DNA of 64,000 nucleotides from Candidatus Thorarchaeota archaeon (GTDB lineage Archaea > Asgardarchaeota > Thorarchaeia > Thorarchaeales > Thorarchaeaceae): contig PRDH01000044.1 in the NCBI GenBank assembly GCA_003345545.1, positions 125,793-189,792 of the forward strand, given 5' to 3'. Positions 34,912-36,034 of this stretch are shown one piece after another. The notes below the pieces were generated by a model, which did not search any database, was not told the origin of the DNA, and worked only from the letters and a program-made list of their open reading frames with translations. Position 1 is the first letter of the stretch. Each line of letters opens with the position of its first letter. The translations under genes were made by a program, and so were the position numbers.

Positions 34912-34991
34912 TTGGCTATAGCGCAATCCTTTTAACGGTTGTGTAAGGAGAACGCACAACCGATTCGCACCAGCGATGGAGTTTGAATATA

Positions 34992-35354
34992 ATGGTAGAA
35001 GACATCAGCTCATCGGAGCTAGATCAAGTAATCGCAAGTAATAGAGTGGTTTTCGTGGACTGTCATGCTGTCTGGTGCGGGCCTTGCAGGACGCTCGGCC
35101 CAATCCTCGAAGAGGTCCATGAAAAGTATCAGGGCAGAGGACTCAAGGTCGTCAAGATAGACGTTGACCATAATCGAGAATTCAGTATGAAGAACCAGAT
35201 AACCGGAGTTCCGAGTGTTTTGATCTATGCCGATGGCAAGAGGGTAGTCTTCGACGATGGCGCTGGCAGAAAGACCGACAAGCTCGTTGGCGTCATGCCA
35301 CCTGAAGTATATGCACAGATAGCAGACGACCTCCTCGCTGAGGAAGCAACATAG
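34992..35354 (+). CDS. trxA: Thioredoxin
   Basis: WCGPC, KIDVD and GVP. Confidence 0.92.
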   Translation: MVEDISSSELDQVIASNRVVFVDCHAVWCGPCRTLGPILEEVHEKYQGRGLKVVKIDVDHNREFSMKNQITGVPSVLIYADGKRVVFDDGAGRKTDKLVGVMPPEVYAQIADDLLAEEAT

Positions 35355-35390
35355 GCGAATTTCTGTGGGTTGACAACAGTTGCAGGAAAC

Positions 35391-35420
35391 TTGGACAAAG
35401 TCGGACAGGTGCTTATATAG
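35391..35420 (+). promoter_or_regulatory. Candidate operator (TTGGACAAAGTCGGACA) plus TATA box (TTATATA)
   Basis: A 10-bp-periodic GGACA repeat just upstream of the TATA box, with an inverted near-copy at 35516-35532. Confidence 0.45.
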
Positions 35421-35433
35421 TCCAGTCTGAAAA

Positions 35434-35596
35434 ACTCCTGTGAGGATAATCTGTCACGAACTCTGTCCTCACGGAGTCCGGCCCAGTGCCGTTCTCTGGG
35501 CGGACAACACTTCGGTGTCCAAGTTTGTCCAACAAACAATGAACGGTACTACGGGGAAGGATTAGTCTTCCCCGTGAGACCTCCTCACTCTTCTTT
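35434..35596 (+). ncRNA. Putative structured non-coding RNA or leader (family not recognised)
   Basis: Consecutive hairpins, a cUUCGg loop, a 10-nt loop-to-downstream complementarity, pairing of the two ends and a terminal pyrimidine tract. Confidence 0.55.
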
Positions 35597-35659
35597 GATT
35601 CACACAATGACAACGTTCAATACCTCGTGAGCGGGAGTCACTATAGGTGTAGGCAGCGT

Positions 35660-36034
35660 TTGGTGAGAGATGTGACCTCCGAAGAAGTGGACGCTGAGAA
35701 GAAGAAGACCAAGCTTCTCTTTGTTGATTGTTGGGCAGAATGGTGCGGACCATGCAAAGCACTCAGTCCAATACTGGATGAGCTAGAAGAAAAGTACAGA
35801 AACAATCAGGATATTCGATTCCTGAAGTTGAACACAGACGAGCACCAAGCATTTGCTATCAGGAACAAAATCAGGGGAATCCCATGTGTGCTCATCTTTT
35901 TCAATGGAGAGCCAGCAAGACTCAAGATAAGGAACAAAGATACGGGAGTCACAACCGTTGTTGATAGGTTGATTGGATTGAGACCTGCAGAGCACTTTGA
36001 GTCTGCTATCGAGTCCCTGCTCAAGGGAAAGTGA
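35660..36034 (+). CDS. Thioredoxin, second tandem paralog
   Basis: DCWAEWCGPC and IRGIP. Start placed at TTG 35660. Confidence 0.9.
   Translation: MVRDVTSEEVDAEKKKTKLLFVDCWAEWCGPCKALSPILDELEEKYRNNQDIRFLKLNTDEHQAFAIRNKIRGIPCVLIFFNGEPARLKIRNKDTGVTTVVDRLIGLRPAEHFESAIESLLKGK

What the first reader, a model, noticed from the sequence alone, without database searches (positions are those of the whole stretch)
35434..35596. Unannotated ~160-nt highly structured RNA with a possible pseudoknot or switch between two thioredoxins
Seen, just after a TATA box: hairpin ACUCCUGUGAGGA/UCCUCACGGAGU (35434-35477); hairpin GCCCAG/CUGGGC, whose loop region AGUGCCGUUC (35485-35494) is complementary to GAACGGUACU (35551-35560); ACAC-UUCG-GUGU; and ACGGGGAAGG/UCUUCCCCGU (35561-35575 region, about 10 bp). 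An alternative nested fold exists: GUGAGGA (35440) with UCCUCAC (35582) and CUCACGG (35468) with CCGUGAG (35572). G-U pairs and the cUUCGg loop favour the + strand, and no credible ORF overlaps it. Inference: a novel small RNA, ribozyme-like element or conformational leader controlling the second thioredoxin.
Basis: partly seen in the sequence, partly recalled or inferred. Interest (0 to 1): 0.7.

Follow-up and report, generated by a model that had tools for sequence, protein, structure and literature searches.

The report
Guide-RNA mini-transposon between two thioredoxins
The "novel structured RNA" is real, but it is one copy of a 177-base gene-less jumping element of the IS607 family that carries its own promoter and the folded guide-RNA scaffold of a TnpB nuclease, so it is a new archaeal example of a known kind of selfish DNA and not a thioredoxin switch.

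Summary
The helices exist and the region folds better than shuffles (z about -3.95), on both strands equally. It is not a locus-specific RNA. Window 35370-35546 is a 177-nt dispersed element. This Thorarchaeota-like assembly holds 6 copies. Thirty of 41 genomes of the same family hold 2-69 copies each.

The sister species G001 has the same trx-trx spacer without the element, as a precise empty site. Eight further filled/empty pairs show recent mobility. Every copy lies 3' of (A/T)GGG and ends in ..ACGG, with no terminal inverted repeats.

The left end matches the left end of a 3.2-kb element in G001. That element encodes an IS607-type serine transposase and a TnpB, and has its own empty site in this genome. 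The right 80 nt match the RNA that overlaps the 3' end of those tnpB genes.

Covariation in 53 copies supports three helices plus two pseudoknots on the + strand. The last pseudoknot abuts the variable flank, which would be the guide. A conserved TATA box precedes the scaffold. One contig from an RNA library covers 35450-35611.

This assembly has no cognate TnpB or transposase, so the copy may be an orphan. The 3' hairpin (35551-75) is native spacer sequence, not part of the element. Earlier runs of this scan found the same family on other Thorarchaeota DNA.

The parts
35366..35369 (+). Target / TAM-like motif TGGG abutting the left end. The family consensus is (A/T)GGG.
   Evidence: About 40 copies have WGGG directly 5' of the element. 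The motif is present in the empty sites. It matches the TGGG target and TAM shown experimentally for an IS607-family IStron (10.1101/2023.11.20.567912).
35370..35546 (+). The whole 177-nt gene-less IS607-type element, from T after the flanking GG to the terminal ..ACGG. The equivalent indel against the sister species is 35371-35548.
   Evidence: Dispersed repeat with sharp ends. Precise empty site in G001.
35370..35407 (+). Left end, with two TTGGACA-like repeats (35391-97 and 35401-07). These are likely transposase binding sites. They are inverted relative to two TGTCCAA repeats in the right end.
   Evidence: Homologous to the left end of the transposase-bearing 3.2-kb element in G001:C24 and C22. 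Conserved in copies. The binding-site role is an inference.
35408..35421 (+). Archaeal promoter-like BRE/TATA (TTATATA at 35413-19) facing the scaffold.
   Evidence: Conserved in position in essentially all copies. An RNA-library contig starts about 30 nt downstream. Promoter activity is inferred.
35441..35471 (+). Helix P1: UGAGGAU (35441-47) with GUCCUCA (35465-71).
   Evidence: Covaries, e.g. pair 23-52 with UA:29, AU:10, UG:4, GU:3, GC:2.
35472..35514 (+). Helix P2: CGGAGU (35472-77) with ACUUCG (35509-14). It encloses helix P3: GCCCAG (35481-86) with CUGGGC (35496-501).
   Evidence: Pair 61-113 shows AU:17, GC:17, GU:8. In P2, 6 of 6 pairs change on both sides.
35502..35530 (+). Helix P4: GGAC (35502-05) with GUCC (35527-30). 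It crosses P2, forming a pseudoknot.
   Evidence: Pair 94-129 shows GC:37, UA:12, CG:1. Only the distal GUCC changes with GGAC. The proximal GUCC and the left-end repeats do not.
35488..35547 (+). Pseudoknot between the P3 loop GCCGUUC (35488-94) and the 3' terminal GAACGGU (35541-47), directly before the variable flank.
   Evidence: 94.5% of cells pair. One copy has the compensatory change CCGAU/AUCGG. Several copies keep the pair through G-U changes, which only work on the + strand.
35516..35532 (+). Two TGTCCAA repeats in the right end (35516-22 and 35526-32). They are the inverse of the left-end repeats and overlap the RNA scaffold.
   Evidence: Read directly from the sequence. Conserved in copies and in tnpB-linked right ends.
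35547..35566 (+). Would-be guide: the first ~20 nt of unique flank that would be transcribed after the scaffold.
   Evidence: The flank differs in every copy. It matches only itself in this genome. The guide role is inferred from the geometry of TnpB guide RNAs.
35551..35575 (+). Native spacer hairpin ACGGGGAAGG/UCUUCCCCGU, followed by a T-rich run (35588-97). Probably the trx1 terminator. It is not part of the element.
   Evidence: Present in the element-free spacer of G001 with compensatory changes, CGAGGAAG/CUUCCUCG. The terminator role is inferred.
34983..35354 (+). Thioredoxin 1 (WCGPC motif).
   Evidence: ORF and motif.
35627..36034 (+). Thioredoxin 2 (WCGPC motif). The true start is probably between 35660 and 35672.
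   Evidence: ORF and motif.

Best explanation
Window 35370-35546 is a non-autonomous, internally deleted derivative of an IS607-family insertion sequence.

What it keeps:
- the left end and right end that the serine transposase (TnpA) needs;
- an archaeal TATA promoter;
- the roughly 100-nt guide-RNA (omegaRNA) scaffold that, in the full element, overlaps the 3' end of tnpB.

How it most likely works:
- Inferred: TnpA supplied in trans excises it as a circle and inserts it at a GG inside (A/T)GGG.
- Hinted, not shown: transcription from its own promoter gives scaffold plus flank, so the flank acts as the guide.
- Inferred from other TnpB systems: a compatible TnpB loaded with this RNA would cut the 'empty' allele (TAM + flank), and repair from a filled copy would restore the element.

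This copy landed in the trx1-trx2 spacer, upstream of the native terminator-like hairpin. Neither the cognate TnpB nor the transposase is found in this 93%-complete assembly, so here the copy may be an orphan that is still transcribed.
For: Repeat family with sharp ends: 6 copies in this genome at 78-86% identity, and 30 of 41 family genomes with 2-69 full-length matches each.

Mobility: the G001 trx-trx spacer is a precise empty site, and 8 more filled/empty pairs exist.

Parent element: G001:C24:10677-13864 reads left end, IS607 transposase, an ORF on the other strand, tnpB, RNA, right end.
- The transposase scores 160.5 bits against NF033518 (cut-off 110), with a MerR-type HTH plus a Resolvase domain.
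- Its left end is homologous to the element's left end.
- Its right end matches model R1 at 69 bits.
- It has an empty site in G000:C68.

Seven tnpB genes carry an R1 match overlapping their 3' end.

Junctions are WGGG | T...ACGG | flank, with no terminal inverted repeats. This matches the published TGGG target/TAM and ..UCGG scaffold end of an IS607 IStron.

Structure: 94.4% of cells pair, 17 pairs change on both sides, 0 of 500 shuffles reach this, and slid controls give 30-50% pairing.

Transcription hint: a 162-nt contig from a metatranscriptome run covers 35450-35611 with 2 mismatches and bridges the right-end junction.
Against: No cognate TnpB and no serine transposase were found in this assembly. 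Its two TnpB-like genes belong to another clade and have a different 3' RNA.

RNA evidence is a single assembled contig in an RNA library. DNA carry-over is not excluded, and contigs cannot fix RNA ends.

Binding to TnpB, guided cleavage and transposition are all untested.

The scaffold does not match Rfam RAGATH-18 or any other Rfam model.
Confidence: 0.85

Rival explanations
1. Host-kept trans-acting guide RNA or regulatory small RNA. On this view the dispersed scaffolds are a multi-guide set that a TnpB-like protein uses for regulation or defence, or this copy has been co-opted to control trx2.
For: It has its own conserved promoter. There is a hint of transcription although no cognate TnpB or TnpA is in the assembly. 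Stand-alone guide RNAs can work in trans (PMC10691335).
Against: Guides match only their own flank and no other site in the genome. Insertions are polymorphic between sister species, not conserved. Neighbouring genes are unrelated. The trx spacer works without the element in G001.
Confidence: 0.05
2. An IS200/IS605-type PATE, moved as single-stranded DNA by a Y1 (HUH) TnpA that recognises subterminal hairpins.
For: It inserts 3' of a short specific motif without target duplication, and it contains hairpins.
Against: The Y1 transposase family PF01797 was found in only 3 of 41 family genomes, and in none of the copy-rich ones. The left end is homologous to that of a serine-transposase element. 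The GG termini and WGGG target are the IS607 signature.
Confidence: 0.03
3. A cis-acting conformational leader, riboswitch or ribozyme of the second thioredoxin.
For: It lies upstream of trx2, is in the same orientation and is highly structured.
Against: It is absent from the orthologous spacer in G001. The same sequence lies next to unrelated genes. The proposed switch helices use non-conserved flank. The RNA-library contig stops at 35611, before trx2.
Confidence: 0.02

Closest known systems
IS607-family insertion sequences and IStrons (serine TnpA + TnpB + guide RNA), e.g. the Clostridium botulinum IStron (10.1101/2023.11.20.567912)
   Same: The transposase of the parent element is an IS607-type serine recombinase with an N-terminal HTH. 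The element ends in GG and inserts at a GG within (A/T)GGG. There are no terminal inverted repeats and no clear target duplication. The guide-RNA scaffold ends in ..CGG at the right end, with the flank as guide.
   Different: This copy encodes no protein. It has an archaeal TATA promoter directly in front of the scaffold and no group I intron. The associated TnpB proteins are unusually long (504-731 aa). The host is an Asgard archaeon.
Stand-alone, mobilised guide RNAs of OMEGA systems (Altae-Tran et al. 2021, as summarised in PMC10691335)
   Same: A guide-RNA scaffold is dispersed without effector or transposase, in genomes (G001, G034) that also hold effector-bearing loci with the same scaffold.
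   Different: Here the ends, the target motif and the parent are defined as IS607-type. Copy numbers reach about 70 per genome. This particular genome lacks the effector.
PATEs: gene-less derivatives of IS200/IS605 elements (Haloquadratum, PMC3119063)
   Same: Short gene-less derivatives of a tnpB-bearing insertion sequence, abundant in archaea.
   Different: PATEs depend on a Y1 transposase and on hairpin ends. Here the Y1 enzyme is missing and the ends are IS607-like.
Rfam RAGATH-18 (RNA bound by some IS607 TnpBs, per PMC13565253)
   Same: The same functional class: the guide-RNA scaffold of an IS607-family TnpB.
   Different: No match to the Rfam model even at E <= 10, so the sequence and structure family is different.

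Membership tests
IS607-family transposon (non-autonomous derivative) | Mobilised by a small serine recombinase TnpA with an N-terminal MerR-like HTH | tested here: met
   A parent element with a homologous left end and right end encodes a 200-aa protein. It scores 160.5 bits against NF033518 'IS607 family transposase' (cut-off 110) and carries Resolvase plus HTH domains. The enzyme is not in the element itself, and it was not found in this genome.
IS607-family transposon (non-autonomous derivative) | Ends in GG and inserts at a GG (G-rich target), with no terminal inverted repeats and no target-site duplication | tested here: met
   There are 9 filled/empty pairs and about 40 junctions of the form WGGG|T....ACGG|N. 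A 3-bp GGT 'duplication' cannot be told apart formally from a shared crossover core.
IS607-family transposon (non-autonomous derivative) | Transposes through a circular double-stranded DNA intermediate | not testable with these tools
   Needs an excision assay.
TnpB guide RNA (omegaRNA / reRNA) | The scaffold overlaps the 3' end of tnpB and stops at the transposon right end | tested here: met
   R1 matches overlap the 3' end of 7 tnpB genes and end exactly where copy similarity ends. In the mini-element itself the tnpB part has been deleted.
TnpB guide RNA (omegaRNA / reRNA) | Conserved scaffold followed by a variable guide taken from the flank, with a TAM on the other side of the element | tested here: met
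   Flanks are unique. WGGG lies at the left junction.
TnpB guide RNA (omegaRNA / reRNA) | Pseudoknot next to the guide | tested here: met
   The P3 loop pairs with the last 7 nt, with 94.5% of cells paired, one compensatory change and G-U changes. The comparison with solved TnpB RNAs rests on my own knowledge and was not tested here.
TnpB guide RNA (omegaRNA / reRNA) | Binds TnpB and directs TAM-dependent DNA cleavage | not testable with these tools
   Needs biochemistry or a plasmid interference assay.
MITE in the strict sense | Terminal inverted repeats and a target-site duplication | tested here: not met
   The termini T-TGAC.. and ..AACGG are not inverted repeats. Only the subterminal TTGGACA/TGTCCAA motifs are. 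'MITE' applies only loosely.
PATE (IS200/IS605 derivative) | A Y1 (HUH) transposase is present in the host lineage | tested here: not met
   PF01797 was found in 3 of 41 genomes, and in none of those rich in copies.
Rfam families, including RAGATH-18 and HEARO | Match to the covariance model | tested here: not met
   There was no match at gathering score. At E <= 10 there were only two chance snoRNA hits.

The most novel reading that the evidence does not exclude
In this genome no cognate TnpB or transposase is detectable, yet an RNA-library contig covers scaffold plus flank. The promoter-bearing scaffolds might therefore be kept as working small RNAs. They could be used in trans by a different RNA-guided protein (for example the other TnpB-like clade, each gene paired with an uncharacterised neighbour), or they could act on neighbouring genes such as trx2. 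That would make them more than selfish debris.
Probability: 0.05. Interest if true: 0.6.

Novelty: new member of a known kind. Interest (0 to 1): 0.27.

Why it matters
It removes a false lead: there is no thioredoxin riboswitch or ribozyme here.

It also adds a well-delimited archaeal case of a protein-less IS607 derivative that is essentially a promoter plus a TnpB guide-RNA gene. The case comes with defined ends, a target/TAM of (A/T)GGG, a covariation-supported double-pseudoknot scaffold, a parent element and many filled/empty site pairs.

This gives three practical uses:
- a ready-made guide scaffold and TAM prediction for the unusually long Asgard TnpBs;
- a marker of recent transposition in Thorarchaeota;
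- a warning for annotators of 'novel structured RNAs' in these genomes.

It is not a new mechanism. Earlier runs of this scan had already reached the same reading on other Thorarchaeota DNA.

Tried and rejected
- Rfam at gathering score (whole window) and at E <= 10 (35300-35720) found only tRNAs elsewhere and two chance snoRNA hits.
- Folding energy does not discriminate the strand.
- Idea: the conserved ATG near the right end starts a downstream ORF. Rejected, because stops follow within 5-8 codons in most copies.
- Idea: the element derives from the two TnpB-like genes of this genome (C22, C16). Rejected, because their 3' RNA is different and R1 does not hit them.
- The Y1 transposase as mobiliser is nearly absent from the family.
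- A search for trans targets of the six guides in this genome gave only self matches plus chance 13-17-mers.
- The divergent neighbour protein of the long TnpBs has no Pfam, NCBIfam or PDB sequence match.
- Read laying. DNA run X6 did not cover the element, so it gave no strain-level presence/absence information. RNA runs X18 and X20 covered only trx1 or conserved CGPC-motif pieces. Uncovered parts are not evidence of absence.
- One paper search failed on a term that was too short.

Full report
**1. What is in the sequence**

The finding lies between two thioredoxin ORFs, 34983-35354 and 35627-36034, both with a WCGPC motif.

The 176-nt stretch folds at -65.1 kcal/mol against -48.0 +/- 4.3 for shuffles, z = -3.95. 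The reverse strand does equally well, z = -3.97, so energy does not pick a strand.

Rfam gives nothing, either at gathering scores for the whole window or at E <= 10 for the region.

GAACGGU is at 35541-47.

**2. It is a dispersed repeat**

A DNA search of the window's own assembly and its relatives showed that about 35367-35547 recurs.
- This genome holds 6 copies at 78-86% identity.
- The sister genome G001 holds more than 10, and the same taxonomic family holds hundreds.
- Alignments of the copies show sharp ends. Similarity begins at GGGT-TGAC.. and stops at ..AATGAACGGT, with unrelated flanks.
- I built a covariance model, R1, from 28 copies. It finds full-length matches in 30 of 41 genomes of the family, at 2-69 matches per genome.

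**3. It is mobile**

G001 carries the orthologous trx-trx spacer at 89-91% identity without the element. The two flanks abut exactly, as ..TGTGGGT|CTTCGAGG...

Conversely, 8 copies present in G001 have empty sites in this genome. In every pair the filled site reads (A/T)GGG-T...ACGG-T/N and the empty site has a single GG(T).

About 40 left junctions give the motif (A/T)GGG. There are no terminal inverted repeats. A 3-bp GGT duplication cannot be told apart formally from a shared crossover core.

**4. Parent element**

Weaker R1 matches sit exactly on the 3' end of seven tnpB genes, identified by Pfam PF07282, in G001 and G034.
- From helix P3 to the terminal ..CAAUGAACGGU the RNA is nearly identical to the mini-element.
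- Similarity between tnpB loci stops at that same base.

The Y1 transposase of IS200/IS605 is found in only 3 of 41 family genomes, and in none of the copy-rich ones. Serine recombinase genes are present in G001, G034 and G033.

In G001:C24 and C22 the recombinase gene is preceded by a left end homologous to the mini-element's left end, GGGT | ..ACAGCT....TGACAAAGTTGGACAT. The recombinase is 200 aa. It scores 160.5 bits against NCBIfam 'IS607 family transposase' (cut-off 110) and has an HTH plus a Resolvase domain.

The unit G001:C24:10677-13864 reads: left end, tnpA, a 320-aa ORF on the other strand, tnpB (504 aa), RNA, right end. It is one 3,188-bp insertion relative to this genome, with its empty site at G000:C68:15707-15710.

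So the 177-nt element is an internal-deletion derivative of an IS607-family element.

The published behaviour of an IS607-family IStron fits closely (10.1101/2023.11.20.567912):
- a strict GG core;
- a TGGG target and TnpB TAM;
- a scaffold ending in ..UCGG;
- self versus non-self discrimination at position -3.

Here the target is WGGG and the element's own end is ACGG.

**5. RNA structure**

I counted pairs on 53 aligned copies (A2).

| Helix | 5' strand | 3' strand | Support |
|---|---|---|---|
| P1 | 35441-47 | 35465-71 | covaries |
| P2 | 35472-77 | 35509-14 | pair 61-113: AU:17, GC:17, GU:8 |
| P3 | 35481-86 | 35496-501 | lies inside P2 |
| P4 | 35502-05 | 35527-30 | pair 94-129: GC:37, UA:12; crosses P2 |
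| Terminal pseudoknot | 35488-94 (P3 loop) | 35541-47 | 94.5% of cells paired |

- Overall, 94.4% of cells pair and 17 pairs change on both sides.
- 0 of 500 shuffles reach any of the five measures, and slid controls give 29-50% pairing.
- Many G-U pairs would be A-C mismatches on the other strand, so the + strand is the structured one.

The P4 covariation is specific to the distal GUCC. The proximal TGTCCAA repeat and the left-end TTGGACA repeats do not change with it. This argues for RNA (or single-strand) pairing and against co-evolution of protein-binding sites.

A pseudoknot that abuts the guide is the usual layout of TnpB guide RNAs. That statement rests on my own knowledge.

**6. Promoter and transcription**

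A BRE/TATA-like box (TTATATA, 35413-19) is conserved at a fixed distance in front of P1 in essentially all copies.

In one size-fractionated metatranscriptome run (X19), a 162-nt contig covers 35450-35611 with 2 mismatches.
- It bridges the right-end junction, with 97 nt on one side and 65 nt on the other.
- It ends after the T-rich run that follows the native hairpin.
- The same run shows no other piece of this organism in the 2.3 kb that were laid.

This is a hint of a scaffold-plus-flank RNA, not proof. Contigs cannot fix RNA ends, and DNA carry-over is possible.

**7. What is not part of the element**

The hairpin at 35551-75 and the following T-rich run belong to the native spacer. G001 has them without the element, with compensatory changes. 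They are probably the trx1 terminator, which is an inference.

**8. Status in this genome**

tblastn with the cognate long TnpBs and with the IS607 transposase finds nothing in this 92.9%-complete assembly.

The two TnpB-like genes present (C22, C16) are of another clade with a different 3' RNA. The six guides match only their own flanks.

So here the copies are most likely orphans left by an element that is still active in sister lineages. The alternative is that the partners lie in the unassembled 7%.

**9. Comparison and verdict**

Stand-alone mobilised guide RNAs that work in trans with compatible effectors are already described (PMC10691335). So is the IS607 mechanism.

This is therefore a new, well-delimited archaeal member of a known kind.

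Earlier notes of this scan reached the same reading on other Thorarchaeota genomes, and one note describes copies elsewhere in this genome. I had stated the guide-RNA mini-transposon reading before opening those notes. I then tested the IS607 assignment myself.

The identification of the organism as Thorarchaeota comes from those notes only.

Noticed in passing
L041 1-1113 (-), L043 3401-4501 (+), L044 2-1336 (-); G000:C22:6885-8186 and G000:C16:26038-27276: Every long TnpB-like gene examined has a divergently transcribed neighbour of about 370-445+ aa. The neighbour has no Pfam, NCBIfam or PDB sequence match. It is conserved across two TnpB clades, at 27-41% identity by tblastn. Earlier scan notes call such partners Asgard Cas1-like integrases. 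I did not verify that.
   Followed up: partly
L039 (G000:C22:8443-10113) and L040 (G000:C16:24098-25744): This genome's two TnpB-like genes (557 and 549 aa, 51% identical) each lie next to a tRNA gene. Downstream of each is a shared, conserved non-coding stretch, unrelated to R1, that is probably their own guide RNA.
   Followed up: partly
L073 1914-2876 (-) and L070 4-1311 (+): The IS607-type elements in G001 carry a 320-435-aa passenger ORF of unknown family between tnpA and tnpB, on the opposite strand. The adjacent tnpB (504 aa) lacks about 200 N-terminal residues relative to the 712-731-aa paralogues.
   Followed up: no
L070 1984-2325 (-): In G001:C22 the left end of the IS607-type element abuts the end of a SAM-methyltransferase-like ORF, which stops at the GGGT junction. 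This suggests an insertion into a gene.
   Followed up: no
L059 (G001:C8:82000-84800): Three R1 matches lie within 1.6 kb. Two are close together in opposite orientation (1612-1733 on - and 1813-1928 on +). This is a small cluster or nest of mini-elements.
   Followed up: no
window 35640-35672: A TATA-like ACTATAG lies about 20-30 nt upstream of possible TTG/GTG starts of trx2 (35660-35672). trx2 may therefore be leaderless and start later than the longest ORF (35627).
   Followed up: no
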